Assembly: GCA_041663045.1 (NCBI GenBank)
Contig: JBAZRH010000001.1
Span: 1,817-65,816 of the forward strand
Origin: Minisyncoccota bacterium
Lineage (GTDB): Bacteria; Patescibacteriota; Minisyncoccia; Phycocordibacterales; GWA1-40-21
Direction: 5' to 3'
DNA: 64,000 bases
Shown piece by piece: positions 19,542 to 60,003 of the stretch. The translations under genes and the position numbers were made by a program. Below the pieces are notes generated by a model. The model made no database searches and had not been told where the DNA came from. It worked only from the letters and a program-made list of their open reading frames with translations. The number at the start of each line of letters is the position of its first letter. Positions within the stretch are counted from its first letter, which is position 1.

Positions 19542-20421
19542 CTTTATATTTTCTTATCTGTTCTACCCAGTAATCCATCCGTAGCGCAGGACAGGCTGTC
19601 TTAGAAGATAGTTCAACGAAGATTTGTTCGAATTCCTTTTCTGTCACATCTTTTAATTTATCCCATTTTTCAATCACCATAAGCGGTATTCCGATACTTT
19701 TCCAATATTCAGTTGGTATAGAGGCTTCAACTATCGGTATAGATTTAAGATATATGGTTTCCCATGTTCTATGACAATCGAGCCCATTTCCTGGGGGTGA
19801 TATGATGAATTTATATTTTGATATCTTTTTTAAATAGTCTTCTTTTGAAATAGTCTCTTTTTCGATTTCTGATAAGGTATCAGCAAGATTTATTTTTTTT
19901 ACTTCCTCTAATATAGGTATTCTTTTTTTAAAGTTTGTCCTAACCCAGAAACTGTAAAACAGTCTGGTGATTTTGTTTTTTTCATCAGAATATTTTTTAA
20001 TAGAATTTATAATTATGTTTTTCTTATCGCCAATACGGCTATCGATTCCTATTGGTATCGGAGTTATCTTTTTGTGCTCAAACAATAAGTTTTCTGCAAA
20101 CCAGTGTATTACCTTGTTATCATCTGCCAGTGATTTCATCTCTTCACTTACACCCATATCTTCATTGTGGGAGATAAGTATGTACGGATTATCAATCAGG
20201 GGATTAATCTTTGATGAAAATTCTTTTAGGAAGTTTGTCCTTACAAAAATAATGTCACCCCTGCTTACATCTTTAGGGTCAAAGTCCATCGATTCATCGA
20301 AAATATGTTGCGCTAGATTACGAAAAGAATCTCCGGATATATATGGATAACTGGTTGGTCTTTGTGTTTTTAACGCTTTGTTTAAATATCTCCTTACTTT
20401 TGTTTTTAATTCTAATAGCAT
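19528..20421 (-). CDS. hypothetical protein in glycan locus (possible glycosyltransferase)
   Basis: Intact 297-aa ORF overlapping the neighbouring genes on both sides. Confidence 0.4.
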   Translation of the reverse strand: MLLELKTKVRRYLNKALKTQRPTSYPYISGDSFRNLAQHIFDESMDFDPKDVSRGDIIFVRTNFLKEFSSKINPLIDNPYILISHNEDMGVSEEMKSLADDNKVIHWFAENLLFEHKKITPIPIGIDSRIGDKKNIIINSIKKYSDEKNKITRLFYSFWVRTNFKKRIPILEEVKKINLADTLSEIEKETISKEDYLKKISKYKFIISPPGNGLDCHRTWETIYLKSIPIVEASIPTEYWKSIGIPLMVIEKWDKLKDVTEKEFEQIFVELSSKTACPALRMDYWVEQIRKYKDDYC

Positions 20422-21692
20422 AAGATTTTTTTAATTTTAGAAGTCGTAAAGATAAAAGCAAAAGGGATTGAATATGATATAAAAGTAGCGAATGCTGCTC
20501 CTGCCATACCATATTTTGGTATGAGGAATATATTTAGTATGACATTTATTGACATACCAAGAAAGGATGAGAAAAATAGAGTCTTTTTGTAATTTTCTGC
20601 CACAAGATAATAGTTGGCAAGCATATTTAAAGATGTGGAAATATTACTCCAAATATATATTTGAAGTATCAATACTGCTCCGATAAATGCCGGACCGAAG
20701 ATTATCTTTATTATTAATTCAGCTAGTAGTGTAGTCGGTATGGCAATTATTATAGAAAGAATTAATAATATCAGACCCAGCTTTTTAATTCTCCTATAAT
20801 AAATTTCTTCAGATATTTTCTTGGCATTTATAATCGCCGGAAACATCGAAGAGACTATTATATTTGGCACGAGATACCAGACTTCAGATAGTCTAACTGC
20901 GGCATCATATAGACCGACGGATTTTGCATCCATCATATTTTTTATCATAATCTGGTCAATTCTAGAATATATTAAAGCAAAGGCAGATGAAAAGATGAGT
21001 GGCCAAGAATCATGAAGTATTTTCTTTGCCACTTCTTTACTAAAGGACCACTCTGAAATCATTTTATAGAGTTTTGTTCGATAGTATAGAAGCCCGACAG
21101 CATAAAAGATTGATTCTAAAAGTAGAACAAATGCCAGATATATAACTCCTTTTCCAAAGACCAAAACTAATATCTTTAATATGTTCAGAATTATTGTTAC
21201 ATATAAAGATAGGAGTGAAGGATATTTTGATTGAACGTTTGCTTGAAATTCATTACTAATTATATTAAAAGAATTGAAAATGAAACTAATACTTAGTAAA
21301 AATATTAGAAATAAGGAGACATCTTTAGGAGAAAACCACAGAGCAAATGTCGAGCAGAGGATTATAGCTAGGATAGATGCTCCCAACCTAAGCCCCAAAG
21401 CTGAACCCATGTATAAATTCCTTTTTTCTGGATATTGAATTAAATCTCTGTATAGTACCTGATCGATTCCAAGGACGGCGATAAAAGAGAATATGGACAC
21501 AAAACTAACTGCATAGCTTAACTCTCCATAGTTTGTTGGACCCAAATGTCTTGCGATATAGATAGTGGCTAAAAGGGAGACAGCCATACTTCCTATTTTT
21601 GCTAGAAACATCCAGCTCATATTTTTGAAATATTTCTGAAATCCAACGTGTTTCCATTTCTCTACTATGTAATTCCAAGAAAGAGTCTGCAT
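20412..21692 (-). CDS. polysaccharide biosynthesis protein, Wzx-like flippase (MOP superfamily)
   Basis: ~12 predicted TM helices. N-terminal FLAKIGSMAVSLLATIYIARHLGPTNYGELS typical of Wzx/RfbX. Confidence 0.65.
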   Translation of the reverse strand: MQTLSWNYIVEKWKHVGFQKYFKNMSWMFLAKIGSMAVSLLATIYIARHLGPTNYGELSYAVSFVSIFSFIAVLGIDQVLYRDLIQYPEKRNLYMGSALGLRLGASILAIILCSTFALWFSPKDVSLFLIFLLSISFIFNSFNIISNEFQANVQSKYPSLLSLYVTIILNILKILVLVFGKGVIYLAFVLLLESIFYAVGLLYYRTKLYKMISEWSFSKEVAKKILHDSWPLIFSSAFALIYSRIDQIMIKNMMDAKSVGLYDAAVRLSEVWYLVPNIIVSSMFPAIINAKKISEEIYYRRIKKLGLILLILSIIIAIPTTLLAELIIKIIFGPAFIGAVLILQIYIWSNISTSLNMLANYYLVAENYKKTLFFSSFLGMSINVILNIFLIPKYGMAGAAFATFISYSIPFAFIFTTSKIKKILCY

Positions 21693-24023: not shown

Positions 24024-24044
24024 AGTATAGGAGAAAGATTTTTA

Positions 24045-24086
24045 AAAAGCGGAACGGTGGCTATTTCTAGCCGTAGTTCCGCTTTT
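24045..24086 (+). terminator. rho-independent terminator
   Basis: aaaagcggaac...gttccgctttt (11-bp stem) with a T-run. Confidence 0.65.
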
Positions 24087-24220
24087 CCTTTTAAATTTGC
24101 TTTATTTCTTATAATATGCTATACTTCCCACTGTGAGTGCTAGCATCAGCGATGGCGCTGGCTCGAACGAATGTCTGCGTATGACCCCACTTTGTGGGGT
24201 TTTACGTTGTCCCAAAAAGC

Positions 24221-24340
24221 TCGCTCGGGCGTGCCTTTATGAGGGTACGGATTTTTTGAAGCTTAAAAAATCCTGAAGTTTTCGCGCCAGTCGCGCTCAA
24301 AACCCCCTCATAAAGGCACGCCCTCGCTCACCCACGAACG
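24221..24340. repeat. imperfect palindromic intergenic element R1 (family with 32563-32705 and 41186-41332)
   Basis: Outer arms gggcgtgcctttatgaggg / ccctcataaaggcacgccc (19/19). Central mini-palindrome ggattttttgaagcttaaaaaatcc. Shares the cgcgcc[ag]tcgcgctc core with R3. Confidence 0.6.
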
Positions 24341-24481
24341 AAATCAAGCTGGAATGAAAGGTGTGAGTTTGATATAATAACAGAGGATTGTTCCCAGTCA
24401 CGACCGGCGGTTGCACTCATATAAGACATTAGTTTTGGAGTTAGCCCCCGCCGGTCTTGAGTCGGAGCAATCTTTTTCCCC

Positions 24482-31587: not shown

Positions 31588-32562
31588 ATGGCATTTGTAG
31601 ACGAATTAAAACTTCATATTAAAGCAGGTCATGGGGGAGATGGCGTGGTGCGTTGGCGACATGAAAAGGGTCGCGAATTTGCTGGTGCTTCCGGTGGCAA
31701 TGGTGGAAAGGGCGGAGATATCTATATTAGAGCTGTCCGTGATATTGGCATACTTGCAAGATATAAAAACTCAAAAGAATTTTTGGCGCAAAACGGTGCT
31801 TCTGGGCAAAGAGATAGTATGCACGGCAGAGATGGCGATGATCTTACTATAAACTTACCGATTGGCTCTGTAATTACAAACTTGGAAACAAGAGAGAAAT
31901 TTAATCTTGATACTGATGAGCAGATTATAAAAATTTTGAATGGTGGAAAGGGCGGGCTTGGCAATGAATATTTCAAATCTTCCACAAATGTTTCTCCAGA
32001 ACAGCAGACGGATGGCAAAAGGGGAGAAGAAGCGGATTTTGAAATAGAAGTAGAGCTTGTTGCAGACGCTGGCTTTATCGGCCTTCCAAATGCAGGGAAA
32101 TCAAGCTTACTCAATGAGCTTACAAATGCACATTCCAAAGTCGGAGCGTATCAATTTACAACACTTGAACCGGCACTTGGCGCAATGCGTGGTTTTGTGC
32201 TTGCCGATATTCCTGGGCTTATAGAGGGTGCTTCAGAGGGTAGGGGTTTGGGTCATAAATTTCTTAGACATATAAAAAGGACAAAGATTTTGCTTCACTG
32301 CCTTTCGCTTGAAGATGAAGTTCTGGTGAAGAATTATAAAGTTATAAGAAAGGAGCTCAAAGATTATAGTGAGGAGCTTGCGGAGAAGAAAGAGATTGTG
32401 ATTTTGACAAAGACTGATTTGGTAGATGCCAAAAAGCTTTCTGCAGCAAAAAAGAAAATAGAAAAATTAAATAAAAATATTTTGACCGTTACCGTTTACG
32501 ATAATGATTCTATAAAAGAGTTGGGGGATAAATTGATTAAGATTCTTAGGGCAGAGAAATAG
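31588..32562 (+). CDS. obg: GTPase Obg (short form, no C-terminal extension)
   Basis: Gly-rich Obg fold (GGDGVVRW.., GGNGGKGGDIY) and GTPase G1 GLPNAGKSS. Length 324 aa. Confidence 0.85.
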   Translation: MAFVDELKLHIKAGHGGDGVVRWRHEKGREFAGASGGNGGKGGDIYIRAVRDIGILARYKNSKEFLAQNGASGQRDSMHGRDGDDLTINLPIGSVITNLETREKFNLDTDEQIIKILNGGKGGLGNEYFKSSTNVSPEQQTDGKRGEEADFEIEVELVADAGFIGLPNAGKSSLLNELTNAHSKVGAYQFTTLEPALGAMRGFVLADIPGLIEGASEGRGLGHKFLRHIKRTKILLHCLSLEDEVLVKNYKVIRKELKDYSEELAEKKEIVILTKTDLVDAKKLSAAKKKIEKLNKNILTVTVYDNDSIKELGDKLIKILRAEK

Positions 32563-32705
32563 GGCGGTTTTGCACGGGGTCCTGGTACCTTATACTTTTT
32601 GAAAACCGCGCATAAAATCCTGCTGGCTTTTTGCTATGCTCGGCTCGCCAGCCTGTGCAATGATTTTCAAAAAGCATAAGGTGCCACCCCTAACACAAAA
32701 CCGCT
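32563..32705. repeat. imperfect palindromic intergenic element R2 (same family as R1 and R3)
   Basis: Outer arms ggcggttttg / caaaaccgc. Inner arms ggtaccttatactttttgaaaa / ttttcaaaaagcataaggtgcc. Shares cacggggtcctg and gccacccctaaca with R3. Confidence 0.6.
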
Positions 32706-32724
32706 TTTGTGATATATTATAGAT

Positions 32725-33237
32725 ATGGAAATATATGTGATAAGACACGGACAGACAAAGCTCAATAAAGAAAATAAATTTAATGGAAGAATTGATGAAC
32801 CGCTTACAGATGAGGGGTTTGTTCAAGCTCGAAAAGTTTCTCTAAATTTACCAGACGATATAAATCATATCTGCTCTTCCTCGATGATTCGTGCAAAACA
32901 GACAGCAGAGACTATAAACAAAAAGTTTAATATTCCGATTACTCTCTACAAAGAAATAATCGAAGTAGACGCAGGTATCAATAACGGCACTGTCTGGGAC
33001 ACTGCATTAAAAGAGAAATACAGACTGATGGACTACGATTTTAAACCGAAAGGGGAATCTTTTTTAGAAGTCAAGGATAGAGTTAGTAGATTTCTGAAAG
33101 ATATAAAAGACAACTATGCTGACAGAAAAGTCTTAATTGTAACTCACGGCGGTATTATCCGTATGATAAATTATCTTGCAAAGGGTTCACCTTTAGGTGA
33201 CATTAAGAATGTATCGTTTTATACTTTTAATATATAA
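32725..33237 (+). CDS. histidine phosphatase family protein (phosphoglycerate-mutase-like)
   Basis: RHGQT catalytic motif at the N-terminus, THGG near the C-terminus. Confidence 0.65.
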   Translation: MEIYVIRHGQTKLNKENKFNGRIDEPLTDEGFVQARKVSLNLPDDINHICSSSMIRAKQTAETINKKFNIPITLYKEIIEVDAGINNGTVWDTALKEKYRLMDYDFKPKGESFLEVKDRVSRFLKDIKDNYADRKVLIVTHGGIIRMINYLAKGSPLGDIKNVSFYTFNI

Positions 33238-39813: not shown

Positions 39814-39874
39814 AAGCTTGCTCGCTGTAGACGGGGAGTTGCATTTTTTGTGAAATCTGATACTATACACAGCT

Positions 39875-41181: not shown

Positions 41182-41185
41182 TATT

Positions 41186-41332
41186 GCCTGAAATTTTCAC
41201 GGGGTCCTGTCGACCTGCCCCTTTTGAAATGCACGGATATTTTCTTGCTAGAAAATTCCTCGTGCTCGCGCCGTCGCGCTCCCAAGGCATTTCAAAAGGG
41301 GCAGGCTCGCCACCCCTAACAAAATTTCAGGC
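41186..41332. repeat. imperfect palindromic intergenic element R3 (same family as R1 and R2)
   Basis: Outer arms gcctgaaatttt / aaaatttcaggc. Inner arms cctgccccttttgaaatgc / gcatttcaaaaggggcagg. Core gtgctcgcgccgtcgcgctccc. Confidence 0.6.
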
Positions 41333-41334
41333 AG

Positions 41335-42084
41335 TTGCATTTTAGCCATATTCTGATATACTTTCTGCCACTTATGATAGAACAAAAGAAAACAGCAAAT
41401 AACGAGAAAATCGAGGCGATGTTTAAGGCAGGCGCCCATTTTGGCTATGCCAAATCAAAGAGAAATGCTTCCACAGCACCTTTTATATTTGGTACCAAGA
41501 ATAAAACTGAAATAATTGACTTAGAAAAAACCAATGAAATGCTTGATAAGGCTATTGAGTTTGTTACTTCACTTGCGAAGGCAGGTAAGATAATCCTTTT
41601 TGCTTCAAGCAAGAGTGAAGCCAAGGGTGCTATCAAAGAAGGAGCAATGTCTATCGATATGCCATATGTTTCGGGAAGATGGATTGGTGGAACTATTACA
41701 AATTTTGTTGAAATAAAAAAGAGACTTGCTAAATATGAAGATCTCACAAAACAAAAAGAAAAAGGAGAACTTTCAAAATATACAAAGAAAGAAAGAGCAC
41801 TTATAGACAAAGAGATATCGAATCTCGAGAAAATGTTCTCAGGAATTGTCGGTTTGAAGGACAATCCAAAAGCGCTTTTTGTTGTTGATCCTAAAGAAGA
41901 GATAAACGCCGTTATGGAAGCGAAGAGGGCAGGAATACCTGTGATAGCAATAGCAAATACAGATTGTGATATTAAAATAGTTGATCACCCGATAGTTGCA
42001 AACGATTCTTCGGTTTCAAGCATCGCTTTTATAGTTTCAGAAATCATAAAAGCTTATAAGGATGGTAAGGTCGCGAAAGCTTAA
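41335..42084 (+). CDS. rpsB: 30S ribosomal protein S2
   Basis: EAMFKAGAHFGY.., GIPVIAIANTDCD. The true start may be the internal ATG at 41374. Confidence 0.8.
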   Translation: MHFSHILIYFLPLMIEQKKTANNEKIEAMFKAGAHFGYAKSKRNASTAPFIFGTKNKTEIIDLEKTNEMLDKAIEFVTSLAKAGKIILFASSKSEAKGAIKEGAMSIDMPYVSGRWIGGTITNFVEIKKRLAKYEDLTKQKEKGELSKYTKKERALIDKEISNLEKMFSGIVGLKDNPKALFVVDPKEEINAVMEAKRAGIPVIAIANTDCDIKIVDHPIVANDSSVSSIAFIVSEIIKAYKDGKVAKA

Positions 42085-43238: not shown

Positions 43239-43311
43239 GCCACCTTAGCTCAGTTGGTAGAGCAGCGCTTTTGTAAAGCGAAGGTCCCCAGTTCAAATCT
43301 GGGAGGTGGCT
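43239..43311 (+). tRNA. tRNA-Thr (anticodon TGT, tentative isotype)
   Basis: Acceptor gccacct/aggtggc (7/7), D-arm tagctcagttggtagagc, anticodon loop ttTGTaa, T-arm cccagttcaaatctggg, discriminator T. Confidence 0.8.
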
Positions 43312-43427
43312 CAATAAATAAACCCGAGAGGGCTTTTTTATGTTTCTTTTGCTGTAAGCGGGCGAGTATCACTATTTTTCATCACTGCTGAGAACCCCAA
43401 GTAAAACCAGAACACTTCTCGGTATCT

Positions 43428-43610
43428 GCAAGTCTACGACCGAGTATCACCACTTTTCTGTGTCCGCAGGCGAGTTTGCCGGTACGGTGTGGTGTAATTT
43501 TGCGGAGTGTATTCACGGAGCAAAAGTATACCACGACGGAAACCGCCGAGGATTAGGAGAATTTCCGCTGGGAAATTCTCCGCACAGAAAAATGGTGATG
43601 CGAGGGAGTC
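43428..43610 (+). mobile_element. MITE-like element copy A (~180 bp with ~19-bp terminal inverted repeats)
   Basis: Ends gagtatcaccacttttctgtg ... cacagaaaaatggtgatgcg are inverted repeats. Aligns near-identically over ~150 bp with the reverse complement of 51402-51597. Confidence 0.6.
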
Positions 43611-43611
43611 T

Positions 43612-44283
43612 TTATTTCTTAGTCGTAGTCGCTGTGCTTGTCGCTGTCTCTTTAAGTTCCGGTATGAGCTTCTCCAAAGCATCTTTCTCTTGAAAACCAG
43701 TAAATGCCTTACCTTTAACTATAATAACAGGGAAGTCTGATTTTACTTTATATATTGAGGCAAGGGTTTTCACTGCTGGGCTGTCGAGATCATAGTCAAA
43801 AGAATACACCCTGAGCTTAGGATAATTCTCTCGAAGATATGTAAGTACATAGCCTTGTTTCCTGCAATCCGAACAGTCATTTGTATAAAAATATATCAAA
43901 GAAACCGGTTTGATATCGCATTTGTCGGCGATTTTTTCCATAAGTAGATAATCTTTGATTTCAAGTAGGGAGTAGTACTTTTTTAAATATAATAATTCCG
44001 GATCGTTCTGGCTCATCTGGTCTTCCATATAAGAGAGCTTTTCGGCAATACTGTTCATCTCTTTTGAGAATTCAGAATCAGCGACATTTTTGCAGGCAGC
44101 TCCTTCAAGGAGGGCGAATTGAGTTTCAGAAGACAAGACATCGAGAGATATCTTTTCTCCCATAGATTTGATCTGCGCGGTTTTTTTATTATCAATATAG
44201 TTACTTAAAGATATGGCGGTAATGAATATCGCAAGTGTGATAATAAATGCATATAGATATATTTTCCAGTCAGTTTTCTTCAT
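43612..44283 (-). CDS. membrane-anchored thioredoxin-fold protein (CxxC)
   Basis: N-terminal TM helix, CSDC active-site-like motif in a thioredoxin-like region, T-rich C-terminal tail. Confidence 0.5.
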   Translation of the reverse strand: MKKTDWKIYLYAFIITLAIFITAISLSNYIDNKKTAQIKSMGEKISLDVLSSETQFALLEGAACKNVADSEFSKEMNSIAEKLSYMEDQMSQNDPELLYLKKYYSLLEIKDYLLMEKIADKCDIKPVSLIYFYTNDCSDCRKQGYVLTYLRENYPKLRVYSFDYDLDSPAVKTLASIYKVKSDFPVIIVKGKAFTGFQEKDALEKLIPELKETATSTATTTKK

Positions 44284-46480: not shown

Positions 46481-48853
46481 ATGAAAGTATCATATAAATG
46501 GTTAAATGAATTCTTGGGAGGCAAAGCGCTAAAGGTTGGAAAATTTGCAGAGCTTTTGACTATGAATTCGGTGGAGATAGAGAGTATTGAAAAAGCTGGA
46601 GGTGATTTTGTACTTGATGCAAAAACTACGCCAAATTTGAATCATCATTTGCTTTGCCATAGAGGAATCGCTAGAGAAGCCGGCGTTCTTGCCGATATAA
46701 AAGTATCTCAATATTCAAGGGAATTTGCTAACTTGGAAGCCAGGCTTCCAAGTGAGAGAAAGCTTAAGGTAAATATTGTAGACGGGAAATTGTGTAGAAG
46801 ATATACCGGAAGAATTGTGGAAAATGTCAAAGTCGGTCCATCGCCGAAGTGGCTTGCGGAAAAACTTGAAATTCTCGGTCAAAGGTCAATAAATAATATT
46901 GTCGATGCCACAAACTTTCTTATGCTTGAGCTCGGCCAGCCGATGCATGCTTTTGATGCTGATAAATTGGCGAAAAGCGGGGAAGTCATTATATCCGTGC
47001 AAAATGCAAAAAAGGGCGACAAGATAGTCACTTTAGACAAAAAAGATATTGAATTGGACGAAAGTGTTCTTCTTATCACCGATGGTAAAAATCCTCTTGC
47101 TATTGCCGGAGTAAAAGGAGGAACATTTGCAGAGCTTGATGAAAATACGACAAATGTTGTATTGGAATCTGCCAATTTTGCACCAACTCTTATAAGAAAG
47201 ACATCCCAAAAATTTAAAATTCAAACTGACGCCTCAAAGAGATATGAAAATGATTTGACCCCTGAATTATGCGGAGAAGCTATGGATATTCTTACAAAAT
47301 TGATTGTTGAAATTGCCGGCACAAAAGATACAAAAGTCGGCGAAGTCGTGGACAATTATCCGCGACCTGCCGGAAAATACAAGCTCGGAATTTCTGCTGA
47401 AGAAGCAAGTGATATTATCGGTGTAAAAATAAGTGACAAAGAAATCGCAAAGATTTTTGACAGATTTGGATTTGAATATAAAAAAGTGAAGCCGATAGAT
47501 GAGGTGTTGAAGATGGCACCGACTTTTGTGGGAATACCGTACAAATACGGAGCAAGTGTTTCCTATGATGCGCCGAGGACTTTTGATTGTTCAGGGTTCA
47601 TTTGCTACCTTTTCCGAGAAACTGGCGTGGGGATACCAAGGACATCTATAGATCAATATGTTTTCGGTAAGCCGATTTCAGAAAAAGATTTGAGACTGGG
47701 GGATGAAGTATTTTCTAACACAAAAGAGGGCAAAATACATTATGAGACAAAAGAATTTTTGCCAGGTACAAAAGTGCCAGAAGGCGTGGATCATTGCGGT
47801 TTATATCTTGGAGATGGGAAGATAATCCATGCTACAGGCCTATTTGGCAAAGTAGTTATTGAAGATTTGAATAAATCGGATAGATTCAAAAATATTGTCG
47901 GCTATAGAAGAATGGCGGAAAACACAGAGAGATTTGTCATTACTGTGCCGGATGAGAGGTTAGACTTGAGAATCAAAGAAGATCTGGCAGAAGAAATCGG
48001 TAGAATTTATGGATATGACAAAATAAAAGATGTAAAAATATCAAATAATTCTGGGAAGACGATTTCAGATAAAGCGTATTTCTATAAAACAGAAGTCAGA
48101 AAAGTTCTTGTCTCTCTTGGTTTTTCCGAAATCATAAATTATACATTTAGAGAAAAAGGCGAGGTTGAATTGGCGAATACTATGTCTCCGGAAAAAAGAT
48201 TCTTGAGGACCAATCTTTCGGATGGATTAAAAGAAGCTTTAGAATTCAACGCCAGATATTCTGACTTTATCGATATGTCGCAGATAAAGATTTTTGAATT
48301 CGGACATATCTTTACAAAGAAAGGGGAGTTTGACCATTTTGCTATAGGTGCGAAGAATTCTTCTGGAGTGAAAAAGCCAAAAGAAATTGAAACTTTGGAT
48401 ATTGCGATAAAATCTATAGAAGAAAAGACCGGTCTTGTATTGAATAGAGGAAAAGAAGAAGTGGTGATAGAAGTAGATTTTTCTGATGCGATAAGAGATT
48501 TACCAGAAGCAAAAGAATATGATTTTACCGGTATTGAAAGTAAAGATATGAGATTCAGTAAAATATCGCAGTATCCATTTATGGTGCGAGATGTCGCCGT
48601 GTTTACTCCTGAAGGCACAAAACCGAAGGAGGTCTTTGAAATTATAGAAAAATGGGCAGGTATATTGATGGTCAAAAATAAACTCTTTGATGTATTTACC
48701 AAGAAGTTTCCGGACGGCACGAGCAAGATATCCTATGCTTATAGATTAGTATTTCAGTCTTATGAAAGGACACTTACGGATGACGAAGTAAATAAGATAA
48801 TGGAGAAAATCACTTCAGAATTAAATTCTCAAAAAGGCTGGCAGGTGAGATAA
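46481..48853 (+). CDS. pheT: phenylalanine--tRNA ligase beta subunit with inserted NlpC/P60 domain
   Basis: B3/4 (TPNLNHHLLCHRGIAREA..), B5 (DNYPRPAGKYKLGISAEE..FGFEY), core (VPDERLDLRIKEDLAEEIGRIYGYD) and FDX-ACB C-terminus. Residues ~345-470 are an NlpC/P60 domain (DCSGF, HCGLYLGDGKIIHA). Confidence 0.85.
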   Translation: MKVSYKWLNEFLGGKALKVGKFAELLTMNSVEIESIEKAGGDFVLDAKTTPNLNHHLLCHRGIAREAGVLADIKVSQYSREFANLEARLPSERKLKVNIVDGKLCRRYTGRIVENVKVGPSPKWLAEKLEILGQRSINNIVDATNFLMLELGQPMHAFDADKLAKSGEVIISVQNAKKGDKIVTLDKKDIELDESVLLITDGKNPLAIAGVKGGTFAELDENTTNVVLESANFAPTLIRKTSQKFKIQTDASKRYENDLTPELCGEAMDILTKLIVEIAGTKDTKVGEVVDNYPRPAGKYKLGISAEEASDIIGVKISDKEIAKIFDRFGFEYKKVKPIDEVLKMAPTFVGIPYKYGASVSYDAPRTFDCSGFICYLFRETGVGIPRTSIDQYVFGKPISEKDLRLGDEVFSNTKEGKIHYETKEFLPGTKVPEGVDHCGLYLGDGKIIHATGLFGKVVIEDLNKSDRFKNIVGYRRMAENTERFVITVPDERLDLRIKEDLAEEIGRIYGYDKIKDVKISNNSGKTISDKAYFYKTEVRKVLVSLGFSEIINYTFREKGEVELANTMSPEKRFLRTNLSDGLKEALEFNARYSDFIDMSQIKIFEFGHIFTKKGEFDHFAIGAKNSSGVKKPKEIETLDIAIKSIEEKTGLVLNRGKEEVVIEVDFSDAIRDLPEAKEYDFTGIESKDMRFSKISQYPFMVRDVAVFTPEGTKPKEVFEIIEKWAGILMVKNKLFDVFTKKFPDGTSKISYAYRLVFQSYERTLTDDEVNKIMEKITSELNSQKGWQVR

Positions 48854-51405: not shown

Positions 51406-51597
51406 TCCACTCATACCAGTATTTTTCTGTGCGGAAATTTTCCCCAGCCGGAAAATTTCCTAATCCTCGGCGGCTTGCGCTGTGGTATACTTTTGCTCCG
51501 TGAATACACTCCGCAAAATTACACCACATCGCACCATGCAAGCTTGCCTGCGGACACAGAAAAATACTGGTATTCGTTCGTTGACTACTTAGACTTC
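51402..51597 (-). mobile_element. MITE-like element copy B (inverted relative to copy A)
   Basis: TIRs ataccagtatttttctgtg (51411-51429) and its inverse at 51556-51574. Internal core gtgtaattttgcggagtgtattcacggagcaaaagtataccac is identical to copy A in reverse complement. Confidence 0.6.
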
Positions 51598-51624
51598 TTA
51601 TTTTTTATTTGATATCATCTTGTT

Positions 51625-52218
51625 ATGGAGTTACTTATTGAGGCTTTTCTTTTAGGTTTAGTTGGCGGAGCAGTTCCTGGTCCAATACTGACCGGTACTT
51701 TTACCGAAATTCTTAGTGACGGCTTTATTAAAGGATGTAGGGTGATTATCTGGGCACTAATTGCAGAGACCATAGGAGCCATTATAGCCCTTTATGTCTT
51801 ATACACTTTGGGTCTTTCAAAAATAGTCATTCAAATTATTTCAATTGGTGGTGCCTTAGTACTTTTCTGGCTTGCCTCTAGTGTTTGGAGAATAAGGGAG
51901 ATTAATATTGAAGCCAAACAGATTTTATCTTTTCCAAAGATTATACTTTTGACAGCTCTTAACAGTGGTTACTGGATATTCTGGATAACTGTCGGTATTC
52001 CCAAGGCACTTTCGTTGGATCAAATATTAACCGATGGTAAGTTTTTGTTTCTATTTTTCTTTGAGCTAGCTTGGCTGATAATAACTTTTGTCTTAGCCTT
52101 TATATTCTTCAAATTTCGCCCTCTTTTACAAAGAAAGAATCTGGTAGGCGTGACTTTTAAGGTCTTAGCTTCCGTATTAATCTTGTTAGGTATTAAGACT
52201 TTAATTGGCGTTTTTTAA
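51625..52218 (+). CDS. LysE/RhtB-family amino-acid exporter-like membrane protein
   Basis: ~6 TM helices, N-terminal GLVGGAVPGPILT motif typical of the LysE superfamily. Confidence 0.55.
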   Translation: MELLIEAFLLGLVGGAVPGPILTGTFTEILSDGFIKGCRVIIWALIAETIGAIIALYVLYTLGLSKIVIQIISIGGALVLFWLASSVWRIREINIEAKQILSFPKIILLTALNSGYWIFWITVGIPKALSLDQILTDGKFLFLFFFELAWLIITFVLAFIFFKFRPLLQRKNLVGVTFKVLASVLILLGIKTLIGVF

Positions 52219-54745: not shown

Positions 54746-56632
54746 ATGGAAAATTTTATAAATACAAATAAACACGCTTTGTTCTTGGGAATTGTCTCCA
54801 TCTTTGCGTCTTTTGTGTTTCTCACTCCTTCATATGCTCATGCAGGGAACTTTTTTGGTGATCTTTGGGGCGATATAACAAATGGTGCCGGAGATGTAGC
54901 ACAAGGTGTTGCTGATGTTGCAGGCGATGTTTGGAAAGGTGGCGGACAAGTACTTACGCAAGTCGGCCAGACGACTGGTGATGTCTGGAATGCTGGCAGT
55001 AATATTGCTGGCGATGTCTGGAAGGGTTCTGGTCAGGCCATCACTCAAGTCGGCTCATGGGGAGGCGATGTTTGGAATGGTGCTGGGCAGGTAGCAACCC
55101 AAGTTGGTAACTGGGGAGGCGATGTCTGGAAGGGTTCTGGTCAGGCCATCACTCAAGTCGGCTCATGGGGAGGCGATGTTTGGAATGGTGCTGGGCAAGT
55201 AGTCACCCAAGTCGGGTCTTTTGGTGGTGATGTATGGAATGCTGGCAGTAATTTTTTCGGTGACTTAACCAATTGGGGCGGAGGAAGTTCTCAAGTAGCC
55301 ACAGCCGGTTGGACAAATACAAATACAAGTTCATATTCTAATTCAAACTCTAACGGTTCAAATTATCAAAATAATTCAAATGGCACTTGTGCCAACGGTA
55401 CTTTGTCTGCAGATGAGGCAGTCAGCGCTTTTCAGAGTGGCACTATTACCGTATCTTTCAATAAAATAAATAGTTCACAAGCAGAGACGACTATTACAAA
55501 CAATACCGGATGTCAGTTGCCTGCGGTTGTCTGGTCTTTCAAAGTTTACGACAATGTAACCTTTGATACTCAAAGACAATTTAATAATAGCGGTACAATA
55601 ATAGTTGCACCGCACTCTTCTCGTACTGTCGTGACTCCTCTTGCTCCTTGTCTTACTCAAGTAGACGCCCTTTATGATTCCGGAAATGTCGGTACAAGTA
55701 GGTTATTTAAAGGAATTATATTTGGTACCGACGGTAGATCCTTCAATTCAATACCTTCAGCTCAAGGACAGTTTTGTACGGATGTACCTCCTCCACCACC
55801 AACTCCAAATCCTCTATACATTTCTTGTTCTGCAAACCCAAGCAGTGTTCAAATTGGTAATACTATAAATTGGTCCGCAAATGCTTCGGGCGGAAGTGGT
55901 AATTATACATACTCATGGTCAGGTACTGATGGACTTTCTGGTAGTTCACAGGCTATTTCAAAAAACTATTCGAATGTCGGTAGTAAAAATGCTAGCGTGA
56001 CGGTGACTTCTGGTACACAATCTGCTACTGCAAATTGTTACGGAAATGTATATCAAGTTCAAGATTATAATTATTACTATGGCGGTGGTTATAATACTTA
56101 CTACTATCCTTACAATTATAATTATAACTATTCATACAACGAAGCCCTCTCCGGTTCTTGTTCTGCTGGGGTATCAAATACTTCTATAGGAAGTACAGTT
56201 ACCTGGACAGCAACTGCTATGGGTGGAAATGGATTTTTTACCTATTATTGGTATGGAGATGAAAATCTTTCAAGTAATAGCCAGTATGTACCCAAGGTCT
56301 ATTCTTATGGTGGAACAAAAAACGCTACATTAACAATAACTTCAAATGGACAGAGTATTACAAGAACATGTTCTGTAAATGTTGGTCAGGTACTTGCATA
56401 TTCCGAGACTAATCCTCTAGTATCATCTGTTTACTTGAGCCAGATCCCTTATACGGGCGCTGGAGATATCTTGAAAGTCTTGTTGTTTATCACAGCTTTG
56501 ACTCTTTGGAGTGGATTGATTGCATATTCTTCCTTGAAGAGGAGAGAAAAACACCATCAGATGTATCCTACAGGAGACACTAAACATGAAGATAATAGTA
56601 AAATCATAACCGACATAGAGATGAAGGATTAG
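54746..56632 (+). CDS. sortase-substrate surface protein with N-terminal GDVW tandem repeats and C-terminal IPYTG sorting signal
   Basis: Signal peptide, ~8 repeats of GDVWxGxGQxxTQVGxxG, two Cys-bracketed Ig-like domains (..W.A.A.GG.G.Y.YSW.GTD..), IPYTGAG + TM + KRREKHH tail. Confidence 0.7.
   Translation: MENFINTNKHALFLGIVSIFASFVFLTPSYAHAGNFFGDLWGDITNGAGDVAQGVADVAGDVWKGGGQVLTQVGQTTGDVWNAGSNIAGDVWKGSGQAITQVGSWGGDVWNGAGQVATQVGNWGGDVWKGSGQAITQVGSWGGDVWNGAGQVVTQVGSFGGDVWNAGSNFFGDLTNWGGGSSQVATAGWTNTNTSSYSNSNSNGSNYQNNSNGTCANGTLSADEAVSAFQSGTITVSFNKINSSQAETTITNNTGCQLPAVVWSFKVYDNVTFDTQRQFNNSGTIIVAPHSSRTVVTPLAPCLTQVDALYDSGNVGTSRLFKGIIFGTDGRSFNSIPSAQGQFCTDVPPPPPTPNPLYISCSANPSSVQIGNTINWSANASGGSGNYTYSWSGTDGLSGSSQAISKNYSNVGSKNASVTVTSGTQSATANCYGNVYQVQDYNYYYGGGYNTYYYPYNYNYNYSYNEALSGSCSAGVSNTSIGSTVTWTATAMGGNGFFTYYWYGDENLSSNSQYVPKVYSYGGTKNATLTITSNGQSITRTCSVNVGQVLAYSETNPLVSSVYLSQIPYTGAGDILKVLLFITALTLWSGLIAYSSLKRREKHHQMYPTGDTKHEDNSKIITDIEMKD
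54890..55270 (+). repeat. in-frame coding tandem repeat (18-aa units; two identical 79-bp blocks at 108-bp period)
   Basis: 55011-55089 and 55119-55197 are identical nucleotide-for-nucleotide. The surrounding units are diverged. Confidence 0.8.
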
Positions 56633-56717
56633 ACGGGGATGTATTTACCGAGTTTTGTCTTTTCTCTTGACTCGATTTTATATTAGTAGTACTATTTAAT
56701 ACAGAAAGGAGGTGCCT

Positions 56718-56933
56718 ATGAAAGCATCTCAAGAAGGAAAAGCTCCGGATCTCTCCGAATATGATCAAGTCTGCCATTGCGCATGCCACAGTGGTGAAGT
56801 GCGACGGGAAGATCTACATCCCTCACCATGTTGCATTCAATGTCCGTATTGTAGTTTGATGATTGTCAGTATTCTCTACAATATGCACATGACATCTTGT
56901 GGCAAACCGAATCAACATTCGGAACAAAAATAA
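56718..56933 (+). CDS. small cysteine-rich protein (71 aa; 9 Cys, CHCACH...CCIQCPYC)
   Basis: Strong RBS AAGGAGG 6 nt upstream of the ATG. Hairpin terminator immediately downstream. Confidence 0.5.
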   Translation: MKASQEGKAPDLSEYDQVCHCACHSGEVRREDLHPSPCCIQCPYCSLMIVSILYNMHMTSCGKPNQHSEQK

Positions 56934-56972
56934 AAAGCTTTGCGTGGCTCCGTGCCTCAGCAAAGCTTTTTT
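56931..56972 (+). terminator. rho-independent terminator
   Basis: aaaaagctttgc...gcaaagctttttt. Confidence 0.7.
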
Positions 56973-56980
56973 ACATAAAA

Positions 56981-57008
56981 TAAAAGCCCCGTGCAACTTT
57001 GCACGGGG
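56981..57008 (-). terminator. terminator for the minus-strand gene 57034-57843
   Basis: cccgtgcaactttgcacggg, with the T-run on the minus strand. Confidence 0.5.
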
Positions 57009-57033
57009 GTGTCTCTTCAAAGGATAACCAAAA

Positions 57034-57843
57034 CTATTTGAAGTAGTGTGAGTATCCAAGGAAGAATGTTGGGCTGGAGAATGCGATGTCTGCCTGTTCA
57101 CCCATGTCGGTTTTTGATCCAGGTTCAAACTCCAATCCAAGTGTTAGGGCGCTTGTCTTTTTCTCGCCGAACATCATTGTGGCGTATGTTCTAACTGGGA
57201 ATGTATGCATTAGGACATAATTTTTCCGTACCTCGCTGTCATTGTTGCGGTCCCAACCGGACTGTGCAACATATGCACAATAACTTCCGCTTACGCCGAG
57301 CCACAAATTATCAAACGGCCCATCGAATGGAGCGACTTCAAGTGTAACCCTGGGTGTCCAATTTAGGAAAAGATCCACGAAAGGATAACCAGTAGATGGA
57401 ATAACGCCGACCTGTCTTAAATCGACATAAGTCAACGCCGCTCCCTCGCCACGCGTATCAGACCCTGGACTGTTCATATAGTTTCTCTCGGCCTCATTCA
57501 TGCCTATCCAGGGCAATATCATCCAATCGGCGCCGATATTCAATTTGACTCTCGGCCACTCGTTTACGCACATAAACGACAAATCGATCTTGTAATTTAT
57601 GTCATATTCCTTTTGTTCGATCGGACCTTGATTTCGCTCATACCCGGTATCGTCCCTGTGGTTCGGGATATTGCGGATTTCAAGTGGCATATTGTTTACA
57701 TGAAAGCCGAGATAGGTAAGATTGATACCGATAGCGGATTCTTGTAATTCTGCCGGCGATGTATTGTCCACCGCGAAGCTTATGCCTACGATCGAAAAAC
57801 AGAATACTAACACCAAGAATAATTTTCCGAATATTGTCTTCAT
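57034..57843 (-). CDS. hypothetical secreted protein (signal peptide; aromatic-rich, possibly beta-rich)
   Basis: N-terminal MKTIFGKLFLVLVFCFSIVGISFA signal-like sequence. Intact 269-aa ORF. Confidence 0.45.
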   Translation of the reverse strand: MKTIFGKLFLVLVFCFSIVGISFAVDNTSPAELQESAIGINLTYLGFHVNNMPLEIRNIPNHRDDTGYERNQGPIEQKEYDINYKIDLSFMCVNEWPRVKLNIGADWMILPWIGMNEAERNYMNSPGSDTRGEGAALTYVDLRQVGVIPSTGYPFVDLFLNWTPRVTLEVAPFDGPFDNLWLGVSGSYCAYVAQSGWDRNNDSEVRKNYVLMHTFPVRTYATMMFGEKKTSALTLGLEFEPGSKTDMGEQADIAFSSPTFFLGYSHYFK

Positions 57844-59739: not shown

Positions 59740-59744
59740 ATTAT

Positions 59745-59960
59745 TAAATTAATTAAATAAAATCGCCCCGATAAAAAACGAAAATTCGTTTTTTATCGGG
59801 GCGACTCAAATTCGCGGTTCCACCCGACTTTCTCGCCCGAACAAATTCTTATTTGTTTTAGGGTTACTCTTTTGGACAGAAATTGTTTTTCCTTGTGGTT
59901 GGTAGCCACAACAATCTCTGCTTCTCTTATATAATAGCAACTAGCTTTTGGATGTCAAAT
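59745..59960 (-). promoter_or_regulatory. thrS leader with T-box riboswitch (promoter, T-box sequence, terminator/antiterminator)
   Basis: Minus strand: TTGACA-16-TATTAT promoter (59959-59931), then leader containing AAAGUCGGGUGGAACCGCG (T-box consensus AGGGUGGNACCGCG, plus coords 59813-59825). Terminator hairpin 59764-59803 + U-run just before the thrS ATG. Confidence 0.7.
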
Positions 59961-60003
59961 ATACTCTTTACGACCATATTTGCTACCGTCGTGTTCCGTA
60001 GCT

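What the first reader, a model, noticed from the sequence alone, without database searches (positions are those of the whole stretch)
43320..43610. MITE-like element copy A next to tRNA-Thr, with an extra degenerate terminal-repeat fragment
A ~180-bp element has ~19-bp terminal inverted repeats (gagtatcaccacttttctgtg / cgcatcaccatttttctgtg in reverse complement). An internal hairpin (ggagaatttcc…ggaaattctcc) shows compensatory changes relative to copy B (ggaaattttcc…ggaaaatttcc). A further TIR-like fragment (gcgagtatcactatttttc, 43363-43381) lies between the tRNA and the element. This suggests repeated insertion or decay at this tRNA-proximal site. No transposase is encoded, so this is a non-autonomous MITE or a structured RNA gene present in two copies.
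Basis: seen in the sequence. Interest (0 to 1): 0.6.

Follow-up and report, generated by a model that had tools for sequence, protein, structure and literature searches.

The report
Structured intergenic repeat family in Paceibacterota
The ~175-base element beside tRNA-Thr is real and is one of at least five copies of a gene-less, hairpin-enclosed repeat sitting between housekeeping genes of a tiny uncultured (Paceibacterota) bacterium; its folded shape, not its sequence, has been preserved, so it is a new example of the known class of MITE-like structured intergenic repeats and not an active transposon or a known RNA gene.

Summary
Copy A (43431-43608) and inverted copy B (51408-51577) each fold into a 20-bp closing stem enclosing three hairpins. 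They differ at 30 columns. Nineteen lie in base pairs and none breaks a pair (chance expectation about 11 broken; 0 of 200,000 simulations). The extra left-arm fragment (43358-43380) is also beyond chance.

The "two-copy MITE" reading is only partly right. A and B are long forms of a larger family. The window holds three short forms: C (24212-24340), D (41183-41335) and F (32562-32706). Related Paceibacterota genomes carry short forms downstream of prfA.

Shared anatomy:
- imperfect flanking direct repeats resembling CTCGCTCG
- a 17-22-bp closing stem whose sequence covaries freely
- an AU-rich hairpin beside one arm
- a more conserved interior, which is the reverse of the MITE pattern

No window ORF has a transposase, recombinase or reverse-transcriptase domain. 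Rfam has no match. Copy A carries about 35 nt of the LysE-side flank, so it arose by segmental copying, not TIR-bounded transposition. A sister genome lacks A, has only the last 62 nt of B, and has D in another spacer.

Most likely this is an ERIC/bcr1-like structured repeat acting at RNA level between transcription units. The functional strand is unresolved.

The parts
43431..43608 (+). Copy A, a long-form element. It comprises the leader AGTCT, the left flank repeat, the closing stem, three internal hairpins and the right flank repeat. The + strand is the better-folding strand.
   Evidence: Homology with copy B. Fold -84.9 kcal/mol, z -7.8, against -73.8 on the - strand. CM R1 scores it at 192 bits.
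43444..43463 (+). It pairs with 43582-43601.
   Evidence: 20 bp, one C x U mismatch, two U.G wobbles. Five outer pairs differ from B on both sides.
43582..43601 (+).
43466..43479 (+). Hairpin H1 (GCAGGCGAGTTTGC), a weak 5-bp stem with two G.U pairs.
   Evidence: pairs 27-31 with 36-40.
43480..43545 (+). Hairpin H2, an extended 66-nt hairpin present only in the long forms A and B. It corresponds to a roughly 70-nt insertion relative to the short forms.
   Evidence: MAFFT places it as an insertion relative to C, D and the relatives' elements.
43489..43534 (+). 46-nt block identical in A and B (GTGGTGTAATTTTGCGGAGTGTATTCACGGAGCAAAAGTATACCAC). It forms the apical part of H2 and contains a symmetric GGA/GGA internal loop.
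   Evidence: The rest of the element is 57-91% identical by segment.
43556..43581 (+). Hairpin H3 (GGAGAATTTCC GCTG GGAAATTCTCC), the AU-rich hairpin next to the 3' arm. This is the feature shared by A, B, C, D and the relatives' elements; F has a different internal hairpin at that position.
   Evidence: (helix 2: 6 of 10 pairs with double-sided changes across the family).
43436..43444 (+). Left flank repeat ACGACCGAG. On the opposite strand it reads CTCGGTCGT, the CTCGCTCG-like motif.
43600..43608 (+). Right flank repeat GCGAGGGAG, 3 nt before the stop codon (43612-43614) of the convergent thioredoxin-like gene. The sister genome's empty site has a single GCGAGCGA at this position.
43405..43435 (+). 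Flank copied together with A. It is homologous to the LysE-upstream flank of relatives (TCTGCAAGTCTACGACCGAG against TCTGCCAGTC-ACGAACGAG in L045). It is absent from the sister genome's spacer.
43358..43380 (+). Solo 'flank motif plus start of left arm' fragment (GCGGGCGAG TATCACTATTTTTC).
   Evidence: 16 of 19 matches, 0.02 expected per window. (motif hit at 43358-43366).
43239..43312 (+). tRNA-Thr(UGU). Its own hairpin plus T-run terminator lies at 43320-43340. It is a neighbour, not part of the element.
51408..51577 (-). Copy B, a long-form element in inverted orientation relative to A. It begins 3 nt after the gyrB stop codon and ends about 48 nt before the LysE start codon.
   Evidence: -84.0 kcal/mol, z -10.1; 200.6 bits.
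24212..24340 (.). Copy C, a short form. It has a 19-bp perfect closing stem (24227-24245 with 24305-24323), an H3-like hairpin (GGATTTTTT...AAAAAATCC), and TCGCTC abutting both arms.
   Evidence: I12; 116.9 bits with R2.
41183..41335 (.). Copy D, a short form with extra outer stems. It fills the whole prfA-rpsB spacer and is the positional orthologue of the element downstream of prfA in relatives.
   Evidence: I13; 121.8 bits.
32562..32706 (.). Copy F, a short form between obg and a histidine-phosphatase gene. It shares the outer flanks CACGGGGTCC...CCACCCCTAAC with D.
   Evidence: I6; 47.1 bits, E 5e-12; not in the training set.
39816..39826 (.). Solo flank motif (AGCTTGCTCGC) right after the stop codon of the 453-aa gene. 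The sister genome has a full D-type element in this same spacer.

Best explanation
Copy A is a long-form member of a lineage-specific family of ORF-less intergenic repeats in a Candidatus Paceibacterota (CPR) genome. I call these stem-enclosed elements.

Each member has:
- short flanking direct repeats of a CTCGCTCG-like motif
- a 17-22-bp closing stem whose sequence is free to change as long as it pairs
- an AU-rich hairpin beside one arm
- a more conserved interior

A and B carry an extra roughly 70-nt hairpin in the interior.

Shown:
- The family exists.
- Its structure is kept by compensatory change both between paralogues and between orthologues.
- Copies come and go between sister genomes.
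- A was generated by copying an element together with about 35 nt of its LysE-side flank.
- No mobilising enzyme is nearby.

Inferred: the elements work as folded RNA between transcription units. They occupy the slot between the stop codon of one gene and the promoter of the next. At prfA, obg, gyrB and the thioredoxin gene they stand where relatives have, or where one expects, an ordinary terminator hairpin. The rod-like fold would stop, process (for example by RNase III) or protect transcripts entering the spacer.

The wobble-pair pattern says the selected fold is on the strand complementary to the neighbouring genes. So the transcript that matters is most likely one that runs against the upstream gene. 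At A that would be read-through from tRNA-Thr. Elsewhere it would be divergent transcription from the downstream gene's AT-rich promoter. The element would then insulate the 3' end of the upstream gene.

Spread is rare and probably occurs by recombination or duplication at motif sites, not by a TIR-binding transposase.
For: Structure and selection:
- A and B fold far better than shuffles.
- All 19 substitutions in paired columns keep pairing, in 0 of 200,000 random trials.
- Across six short-form sequences, 18 of 29 pairs show double-sided changes. No shuffle of 500 reaches this, and the register control peaks at 0.

Family:
- MAFFT aligns A and B collinearly with C, D and the relatives' elements: flank motif, arm, H3, CTCGGC, insertion, arm, flank motif.
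- CM R2 finds F, which was not in its training set, at E 5e-12.

Conservation pattern (interior more conserved than arms).

Turnover:
- The sister genome lacks A.
- It keeps only the last 62 nt of B, joined to a different gene.
- It has D in a neighbouring spacer, where the window has only a solo motif.
- A Logan assembly contig of the same organism ends inside A.

Segmental origin of A.

Position in place of terminators:
- No terminator-like site other than the element in the A, B, D and F spacers.
- The sister genome has a plain terminator hairpin after prfA.
- Other relatives have one after gyrB.

Strand:
- Wobble-compatible appositions favour the antisense strand by at least 10 to 1.
- Antisense MFE is lower in 8 of 8 elements.
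- Antisense promoter-like sites abut F and C.

No transposase, recombinase or RT domain in the ORFs scanned. No Rfam family.

Analogy: bcr1 and ERIC repeats are co-transcribed, keep their structure by compensatory changes and affect mRNA stability (PMC3184786).
Against: - There are no expression data. Whether the element is transcribed, from which strand, and with what ends is unknown.
- The two strand signals may conflict. All copies are co-oriented with the upstream gene, which suggests a sense (3'-UTR) role. The wobble pattern favours the complementary strand. Only copy A separates orientation relative to transcription from orientation relative to replication.
- No U-tract follows the stem on either strand, so it is not a canonical intrinsic terminator.
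- Promoter-like sites on the favoured strand are found for only 2 of 5 copies. That is close to chance.
- The sister genome has lost A and most of B, so these copies are dispensable.
- Flanking direct repeats plus single-motif 'empty' sites are what a target-specific mobile element would leave behind.
- The sample is small: 64 kb plus about 150 kb of relatives. The orthologues are not independent, and the alignments are MAFFT- or CM-derived.
- Gene conversion between A and B, not selection, could explain the 46-nt identical block.
Confidence: 0.5

Rival explanations
1. Classical MITE: a deletion derivative of an insertion sequence. A transposase encoded elsewhere in the genome binds the terminal inverted repeats, mobilises the element in trans, and duplicates the target on insertion.
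For: - Inverted terminal repeats of 17-22 bp, no ORF, size 90-180 bp.
- Several copies in intergenic DNA.
- Imperfect 7-9-bp direct repeats abut the arms.
- Presence/absence and position differ between sister genomes, and single-motif 'empty' sites exist.
- An assembly breaks at the element.
- These are the defining MITE features listed in PMC3184786.
Against: - The arms are the most variable part. C and D arms are about 42% identical (8 of 19 positions, compared by eye from the sequences), and the outer 14 columns of A and B are 57% identical. No single transposase could recognise them by sequence.
- The interior is more conserved than the ends.
- The flanking repeats have the same sequence at all four independent loci, unlike ordinary TSDs.
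- A carries about 35 nt of donor flank beyond its arm.
- Arm complementarity has been kept perfect in orthologues whose surrounding spacers are no longer alignable. Neutral MITE relics would not show this.
- No transposase domain in the window ORFs scanned or in about 150 kb of relatives' loci.
Confidence: 0.15
2. A family of independently transcribed, trans-acting small structured RNAs. They would be encoded on the strand opposite to the neighbouring genes, and A and B would be an expanded subtype whose conserved apical hairpin is the functional site.
For: - The wobble pattern and MFE favour the antisense strand in all elements.
- The interior is conserved while the closing stem covaries freely, as in many stable RNAs.
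- A is a copy of 'leader plus element' with defined ends, as expected if a transcription unit was copied.
- Promoter-like sites on the antisense strand lie next to F (TTATCA-16-TATAAT) and C.
Against: - No promoter-like site for A, B or D on that strand, and no terminator after any copy.
- No Rfam relative.
- The core 20-mer is absent from 185,579 species-representative genomes and 241 million metagenome records.
- The sister genome has lost or truncated copies.
- Five or more paralogues per 64 kb, with very different sequences, would be unusual for a trans-acting RNA in a reduced genome.
Confidence: 0.2
3. DNA-level element: a structure-specific recombination site (or cruciform/protein-binding site). 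The folded single strand would be recognised by a recombinase, and crossing-over at the flank motif would move adjacent genes.
For: - Gene-order changes coincide with element borders. LysE sits between prfA and rpsB in five relatives but behind gyrB, next to B, in the window, while an element (D) remains after prfA.
- The sister genome's breakpoint to TGT lies inside B.
- D sits in different spacers in the two sister genomes.
- The elements have a conserved short motif at both ends, a variable sequence with conserved structure, a fixed orientation relative to ORFs, a position just after stop codons, and a better fold on the strand complementary to the ORFs. These are the properties of integron attC sites (my own knowledge of that family).
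Against: - No integrase or recombinase domain in the window ORFs scanned or in the fetched loci.
- The end motifs are direct, not inverted, so they cannot form an attC-like R box.
- No GTTRRRY/RYYYAAC pair, no extrahelical bases, and perfect stems.
- The flanking genes are housekeeping genes, not cassettes.
- Rearrangements near repeats are also expected from plain homologous or illegitimate recombination.
Confidence: 0.1
4. Neutral palindromes kept perfect by a mutational mechanism, with no function. The mechanism would be hairpin-templated repair or template switching within quasi-palindromes, plus gene conversion between copies.
For: - Template switching in quasi-palindromes produces apparently compensatory double changes without selection (established mutational mechanism; my own knowledge).
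- The 46-nt identical block in A and B could be a conversion tract.
- The sister genome tolerates loss of the copies.
Against: - Templated correction makes arms perfect. It does not explain the strand-biased retention of G.U-compatible mismatches, at least 10 to 1.
- It does not explain conservation of unpaired interior sequence between genomes whose spacers are otherwise unalignable (R_D and L045 interiors are nearly identical).
- It does not explain the constant position and orientation relative to genes.
Confidence: 0.05

Closest known systems
bcr1 repeats of the Bacillus cereus group (about 155 bp; as summarised in PMC3184786)
   Same: - Similar size and no ORF.
- Dispersed in intergenic DNA with a distribution not conserved between close relatives.
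- Flanked by short direct repeats.
[quoted passage not shown]
   Different: - bcr1 copies are similar in sequence, and its 5-bp direct repeats vary by site. Here the arms differ strongly between copies and the flank repeat is the same motif everywhere.
- bcr1 transcription has been shown. Here it is untested.
ERIC / IRU sequences of Enterobacteriaceae (127-bp imperfect palindromes; PMC3184786, which cites Hulton 1991, Wilson and Sharp 2006, and De Gregorio 2005)
   Same: - Imperfect palindromes confined to intergenic regions, many at the 3' ends of genes.
- No known transposase.
- Presence or absence differs between species at the same locus.
- Size variants with internal insertions (my own recollection of Wilson and Sharp 2006, not re-read here).
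- Can change mRNA stability.
   Different: - ERIC sequence is highly conserved across genera and copies. The elements here conserve structure and interior but not arm sequence.
- ERIC-type repeats are reported with TA flanks. Here the flanks are CTCGCTCG-like.
- ERIC occurs in both orientations (my own knowledge). All copies seen here are co-oriented with the upstream gene.
Classical bacterial MITEs (Correia/NEMIS, RUP, Nezha and others; PMC3184786)
   Same: TIRs around a non-coding core, flanking direct repeats, size under 200 bp, a long stem-loop when transcribed, and location at gene 3' ends.
   Different: - The TIRs are not sequence-conserved.
- No matching IS is known.
- The flank repeats are identical between loci.
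- One copy (A) includes donor flank beyond the TIR.
REP / REPIN elements with RAYT transposases (PMC3116915)
   Same: Extragenic palindromic elements forming hairpins, non-autonomous, and under within-genome selection for hairpin integrity.
   Different: - REPs are 20-40-nt GC-rich palindromes, and REPINs are pairs of them.
- REPs are tied to a RAYT (IS200/IS605-like) gene. No such domain was found in the window ORFs scanned.
- The elements here enclose a conserved interior with its own hairpins.
Integron attC sites
   Same: Structure conserved while sequence varies, placed just after stop codons, a fixed orientation relative to ORFs, and a better fold on the strand complementary to the ORFs (my own knowledge of attC).
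   Different: No inverted R''/R' core sites, no extrahelical bases, no integrase, and no cassette array. The end motifs are direct repeats.

Membership tests
MITE (definition in PMC3184786) | Terminal inverted repeats straddling a core | tested here: met
   Arms of 17-22 bp in A, B, C, D and F.
MITE (definition in PMC3184786) | No transposase gene inside; size under about 200-400 bp | tested here: met
   Elements are 92-178 bp. The only ORFs are chance ones overlapping A, and they are not conserved in B.
MITE (definition in PMC3184786) | Flanked by target-site duplications (direct repeats created on insertion) | tested here: inconclusive
   Imperfect 7-9-bp direct repeats abut the arms of A, B, C and the prfA-locus elements. 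They are the same CTCGCTCG-like motif at every locus. Single-motif 'empty' sites exist. F lacks the repeats. This fits either strict target specificity or a motif that belongs to the element.
MITE (definition in PMC3184786) | TIRs match those of an IS whose transposase can act in trans; TIR sequence shared by copies | tested here: not met
   The arms differ strongly between copies. No transposase domain in the window ORFs scanned or in the fetched relatives' loci. The rest of the genome could not be searched.
MITE (definition in PMC3184786) | Evidence of past mobility (different locations in related genomes) | tested here: met
   A is absent from the sister genome, D lies in a different spacer there, and B is truncated there. 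However, A includes donor flank, so at least that event was not TIR-bounded.
ERIC/bcr1-like structured intergenic repeats | Secondary structure maintained by compensatory changes | tested here: met
ERIC/bcr1-like structured intergenic repeats | Transcribed (co-transcribed with neighbouring genes) and affecting transcript fate | not testable with these tools
   No expression data are available. Only position is known: between a stop codon and the next promoter.
REP/REPIN-RAYT | Short GC-rich palindromes associated with a RAYT (Y1 transposase) gene | tested here: not met
   No Y1_Tnp-type domain in the window ORFs scanned. The architecture differs. A genome-wide test was not possible.
Integron attC | Inverted core sites RYYYAAC...GTTRRRY forming the R box, extrahelical bases, and an IntI integrase nearby | tested here: not met
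   The end motifs are direct repeats and the stems are perfect. No integrase domain in the window ORFs scanned.
Retron ncRNA (msr-msd) | a1/a2 inverted repeats around msr-msd with an adjacent reverse transcriptase gene | tested here: not met
   Inverted ends are present, but no RVT domain occurs next to A or B or in any other window ORF scanned.
Any Rfam 15 family (including 6S RNA, Y RNA, riboswitches, ribozymes, HEARO/omega RNA) | Covariance-model score at or near the gathering threshold | tested here: not met
   Only three tRNAs pass the gathering threshold in the window. The best sub-threshold hits over A, D and C are 13-23 bits against thresholds of 45-110.
Intrinsic (Rho-independent) terminator | GC-rich hairpin immediately followed by a U-tract | tested here: not met
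   No terminator-like site ends at an element's closing stem on either strand; the one site flagged in the A spacer is the tRNA-Thr hairpin, and the others lie inside elements B and C or in the LysE coding region. The genome's ordinary terminators are simple 18-23-bp palindromes with 2-4-nt loops (I2-I5, I9, I16, I19).

The most novel reading that the evidence does not exclude
The elements are folded-strand recombination sites of an unrecognised site-specific system in CPR bacteria, functionally analogous to integron attC sites. A recombinase encoded elsewhere would recognise the hairpin plus the CTCGCTCG core on the strand complementary to the genes. Exchange at these sites would relocate even housekeeping genes.

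Observations this would explain:
- LysE has moved from prfA-rpsB to behind gyrB, with an element at both junctions.
- The element has swapped sides of rpmE-prfA between sister genomes.
- The sister genome's breakpoint lies inside B.

Nothing tested excludes this reading. Nothing supports it beyond position, strand bias and the coincidence of rearrangement borders.
Probability: 0.07. Interest if true: 0.85.

Novelty: new member of a known kind. Interest (0 to 1): 0.4.

Why it matters
CPR/Patescibacteria genomes are small and tightly packed. In this window the five elements account for four of the nine intergenic gaps longer than 150 nt, and share a fifth with another inverted repeat. So they are a visible investment of non-coding DNA.

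A family whose shape is conserved while its stem sequences drift, placed where terminators normally sit, gives a concrete handle on how these poorly understood bacteria end, process or insulate transcripts.

The elements also mark the points where gene order has changed between sister genomes, and where assemblies break. That matters for binning and synteny analysis of CPR MAGs.

If the strand bias is confirmed, the family would be a candidate antisense-RNA or folded-strand DNA system. That would be considerably more interesting than an ordinary repeat.

Tried and rejected
Searches for further copies by sequence:
- Core pattern TTTGCGGAGYGNNNNCRCGGAGCAAA in 185,579 species genomes gave one chance hit in a Saccharibacteria coding region.
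- The exact 20-mer GCGGAGTGTATTCACGGAGC in 241 million metagenome records gave nothing.
- A 3'-part pattern in metagenomes gave 11 chance hits. None passed CM R1.
- Four viral-contig scans gave only chance hits or nothing.
- blastn against the phage collection found no match.
- The source contig (428,695 bp) could not be fetched. Exact look-ups of gyrB failed. Only a 5.9-kb Logan contig was returned. The genome-wide copy number is therefore unknown.

Identities considered and rejected:
- Retron: no reverse transcriptase.
- 6S RNA, Y RNA, SRP, ribozymes, riboswitches: no Rfam signal, and the element is multi-copy and dispensable.
- T-box for pheS or thrS: wrong position and strand.
- omega-RNA or bridge RNA: no TnpB, IscB or IS110 gene.
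- attC: no inverted core sites and no integrase.
- Prophage or island att site at tRNA-Thr: the repeats are inverted, are not tRNA-derived, and enclose housekeeping genes.
- Inversion of the 7.8-kb A-B segment: the thioredoxin-GT2 and pheS-pheT-gyrB blocks are each conserved in the sister genome, on separate contigs.
- Small ORFs inside the element: not conserved between A and B.

Promoter scans on the favoured strand were inconclusive: hits for 2 of 5 copies.

Literature searches for CPR structured RNAs or MITEs returned nothing relevant.
Full report
**Setting**

The window comes from a Candidatus Paceibacterota (CPR) MAG. Its gyrB, thioredoxin-like and LysE proteins are 100% identical to NCBI/JGI entries on a 428,695-bp contig.

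The genome is compact. Only nine gaps between long ORFs exceed 150 nt. The region around the finding is housekeeping:
- rpmE
- prfA
- rpsB
- tsf
- a 126-aa gene
- tRNA-Thr (43239-43312, +)
- copy A
- a membrane thioredoxin-like gene (43612-44283, -)
- a GT2 glycosyltransferase gene (-)
- pheS, pheT, gyrB (+, stop at 51405)
- copy B
- LysE (51625, +)

**Check of the observation**

The inverted terminal repeats, the internal hairpin and the second copy are all present.

Copy A (43440-43606, + strand) folds at -84.9 kcal/mol (z -7.8). Copy B (51408-51577, - strand) folds at -84.0 kcal/mol (z -10.1). The two folds are the same: a 20-22-bp closing stem, a weak hairpin H1, a 66-nt hairpin H2, a 10-nt joiner and an 11-bp hairpin H3.

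The copies differ at 30 of 170 aligned columns. Nineteen of these lie in the 61 predicted pairs: 7 pairs changed on both sides and 5 on one side only (G-C or A-U to G.U). None is broken. Placing the same substitutions at random breaks 10.9 pairs on average, and never zero in 200,000 trials.

The extra fragment at 43362-43380 matches the left arm at 16 of 19 positions, against 0.02 expected per window. It is preceded by the flank motif GCGGGCGAG, so it is a solo 'motif plus arm start'.

**It is not a known RNA**

Rfam 15 finds only the three tRNAs at gathering threshold. Relaxed searches over A, D and C give only noise.

**It is not a two-copy element**

A scan for long inverted repeats with 40-170-nt spacers finds 8 in the window, against 0.4 in shuffles.

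Besides A and B, three are intergenic:
- C: 24227-24323, a 19-bp perfect stem.
- D: 41214-41305, a 19-bp perfect stem nested in a further 15-bp outer stem. It fills the whole prfA-rpsB spacer, 41183-41335.
- F: 32583-32686.

In five related genomes, reached through LysE homologues (L042-L046), the prfA-LysE spacer holds a roughly 95-nt element with a 17-18-bp stem.

These elements align with C and D over flanks, arms, an AU-rich hairpin with loop TTGCTA, and a CTCGGC-containing interior. On that alignment, 18 of 29 pairs in the closing stem and hairpin show double-sided changes. No shuffle of 500 reaches this. Sliding the 3' partner by one or more columns collapses the signal.

A covariance model built from these six sequences finds F, which was not in its training set, at 47 bits (E 5e-12). 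It also gives weak hits in two relatives.

MAFFT aligns A and B collinearly with the short forms: flank motif, arm, H3, TCCTCGGCGG/TGCTCGGCTC, a roughly 70-nt insertion (H2), arm, flank motif. So A and B are long forms of one family.

**Flanks**

In the orientation of the neighbouring genes, the arms are abutted by imperfect direct repeats of a CTCGCTCG-like motif. Examples:
- C: ...GCTCGCTC|arm...arm|TCGCTCAC
- L043: CTCGCTC|...|TCCGCTCG
- L042: TTCGCTT|...|TTCGCTC
- A: TCCCTCGC|...|ACTCGGTCGT

The motif class occurs at 8.6e-4 per nt in the window.

Two 'empty' spacers carry one motif copy right after a stop codon:
- the sister genome's thioredoxin/tRNA-Thr spacer (TAA TCGCTCGC TAATTT)
- the window's 453-aa-gene/rpmE spacer (TAA AAGCTTGCTCGC)

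**History**

A sister population, which I call R, comes from JGI metagenome 3300045700. Its identity to the window is 94% for gyrB, 87% for the thioredoxin-like protein and 75% for pheS. Three things differ in R:
1. It has no element at the A locus. The spacer is about 199 nt shorter.
2. After gyrB it keeps only the last 62 nt of B (H3 plus the right arm, 85% identical to B), joined to a TGT gene instead of LysE.
3. Its D-type element lies between the 452-aa gene and rpmE, not after prfA. There a plain terminator hairpin stands.

Other relatives have ordinary terminators after gyrB.

The ancestral gene order, seen in five genomes, is prfA-[element]-LysE-rpsB. In the window an element (D) stays with prfA, and LysE sits behind gyrB next to B. 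The LysE promoter block and the adjacent TTCGYTCGTTG flank remain alignable.

Copy A's flank on the LysE side (43405-43444) is homologous to that same LysE-upstream flank. It matches TCTGCCAGTC-ACGAACGAG of L045 at 17 of 20 positions, better than B's own flank does. So A was produced by copying an element together with about 35 nt of flank, not by excision at its inverted repeats.

In the 3' third, B is closer to R's fragment (85%) than to A (72%). Yet A and B share a 46-nt identical block and are 91% identical over columns 15-120. Either the interior is under strong constraint or gene conversion has homogenised it.

A Logan assembly of the same organism breaks inside A.

**Why not a classical MITE**

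The family has the formal MITE traits listed in PMC3184786: TIRs, flanking direct repeats, no ORF, small size, a long stem-loop, and different locations in relatives.

Four things argue against a transposase-driven MITE:
- The arms are its least conserved part, and they covary. The interior is conserved, nearly identically between R and L045, whose spacers are otherwise unalignable.
- The flank repeats are the same at all loci.
- One copy carries donor flank.
- No ORF scanned in the window, and no gene called in about 150 kb of relatives' loci, has a transposase or recombinase domain. One RVT_1 gene in L042 is unlinked.

The closest described things are the bcr1 repeats of Bacillus cereus and ERIC sequences. 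These are structured, co-transcribed intergenic repeats that keep their structure by compensatory changes and can alter mRNA stability (PMC3184786).

**How it may work**

Every copy lies between the stop codon of one gene and the promoter of the next. Promoter-like sites of the form TGnTAnnAT lie 7-10 nt before the start codons of LysE and the gene after F.

In the A, B, D and F spacers there is no other terminator-like site. Relatives without the element have a plain terminator in the same place. This points to a role in ending, processing or insulating transcripts.

All copies are co-oriented with the upstream gene. A, the only inverted copy, sits next to the only inverted gene. This would suggest a 3'-UTR role.

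The wobble pattern says otherwise. Appositions that are G.U on the strand complementary to the genes, and A.C on the sense strand, outnumber the converse by at least 10 to 1. The complementary strand folds more stably in 8 of 8 elements, by 10-11 kcal/mol in A and B.

The reading that fits both signals is that the selected fold forms in transcripts running against the upstream gene. At A these would be tRNA-Thr read-through. Elsewhere they would be divergent transcripts from the AT-rich, partly symmetric promoters downstream. Antisense promoter-like sites abut F and C.

This step is inference. There are no expression data. There is no U-tract after the stem. Promoter hits for 2 of 5 copies are near chance.

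**Rivals**

- A trans-acting antisense small-RNA family (0.2).
- A classical MITE (0.15).
- A DNA-level recombination or cruciform site (0.1).
- Neutral palindromes kept perfect by templated repair (0.05).

**Limits**

The single genome-collection scan and both metagenome scans returned no true homologue. The source contig could not be fetched. So genome-wide copy number and wider phylogenetic distribution are unknown. The relatives' elements are orthologues and are not independent. The alignments are automatic.

**Verdict**

It is a new, lineage-restricted member of the known class of MITE-like structured intergenic repeats. It is neither an active MITE tied to the tRNA nor a member of any Rfam 15 family. 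Interest is moderate (0.4). It would rise if the strand bias proves to reflect an antisense RNA or a folded-strand recombination site.

Noticed in passing
window 24386-24472: A separate 25-nt imperfect inverted repeat (84% complementary, 37-nt spacer) lies between copy C and the murB start codon (24482). The 458-nt spacer 24024-24481 therefore holds a plain terminator (24045-24086), copy C and this structure.
   Followed up: partly
L003 6933-7030 (sister genome, inside the TGT gene 6296-7654): A 20-bp perfect inverted repeat with a 46-nt spacer lies inside the queuine tRNA-ribosyltransferase ORF. CM R2 scores it weakly (23.5 bits). The Pfam TGT match spans 340 residues for 289 profile positions, which suggests an insertion of about 50 aa that does not interrupt the called reading frame. 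This is reminiscent of Rickettsia palindromic elements.
   Followed up: partly
L042 6628-7644: A 338-aa RVT_1 reverse transcriptase gene lies between a hypothetical gene and rplY in one relative only. It has about 890 nt of non-coding or small-ORF DNA upstream. It could be a retron or a DGR. It has no detectable link to the element.
   Followed up: no
window about 56000-57500: Cumulative GC skew peaks here, and gene orientation switches from + to -. This is consistent with a replication terminus, or a recent inversion breakpoint, about 5 kb from copy B.
   Followed up: no
window 9977-21692: A low-GC (30-32%) polysaccharide-biosynthesis cluster contains two paralogous GT11 plus methyltransferase gene pairs about 7.9 kb apart (repeats D3/D5).
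   Followed up: partly
window 54922-55279: 54-nt in-frame tandem repeats (GDVW-type) lie in a 628-aa PKD-domain surface protein, next to a sortase gene.
   Followed up: no
window 46481-48853, also L003, L042 and L045: PheT carries an NlpC/P60 domain inserted between the B3_4 and B5 domains. The insertion is conserved in the relatives.
   Followed up: no
window 51590-51627 and 32690-32727; L042/L045 9966-10003: Extended -10 promoter-like sites (TGnTAnnAT) end only 7-10 nt before the start codons of LysE and the gene after F. This suggests leaderless or near-leaderless mRNAs in this lineage.
   Followed up: partly
window 59740-60003: A 264-nt spacer upstream of thrS (-) contains a 20-bp perfect palindrome (59763-59804). 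No T-box or other Rfam family passes the gathering threshold there.
   Followed up: no
L025, L026 and L027 contig ends: Three independent assemblies of a gyrB-88% relative all end 66-95 nt after the gyrB stop codon, just past its terminator. This hints at a repeat or strain-variable junction downstream of gyrB in that lineage too.
   Followed up: no
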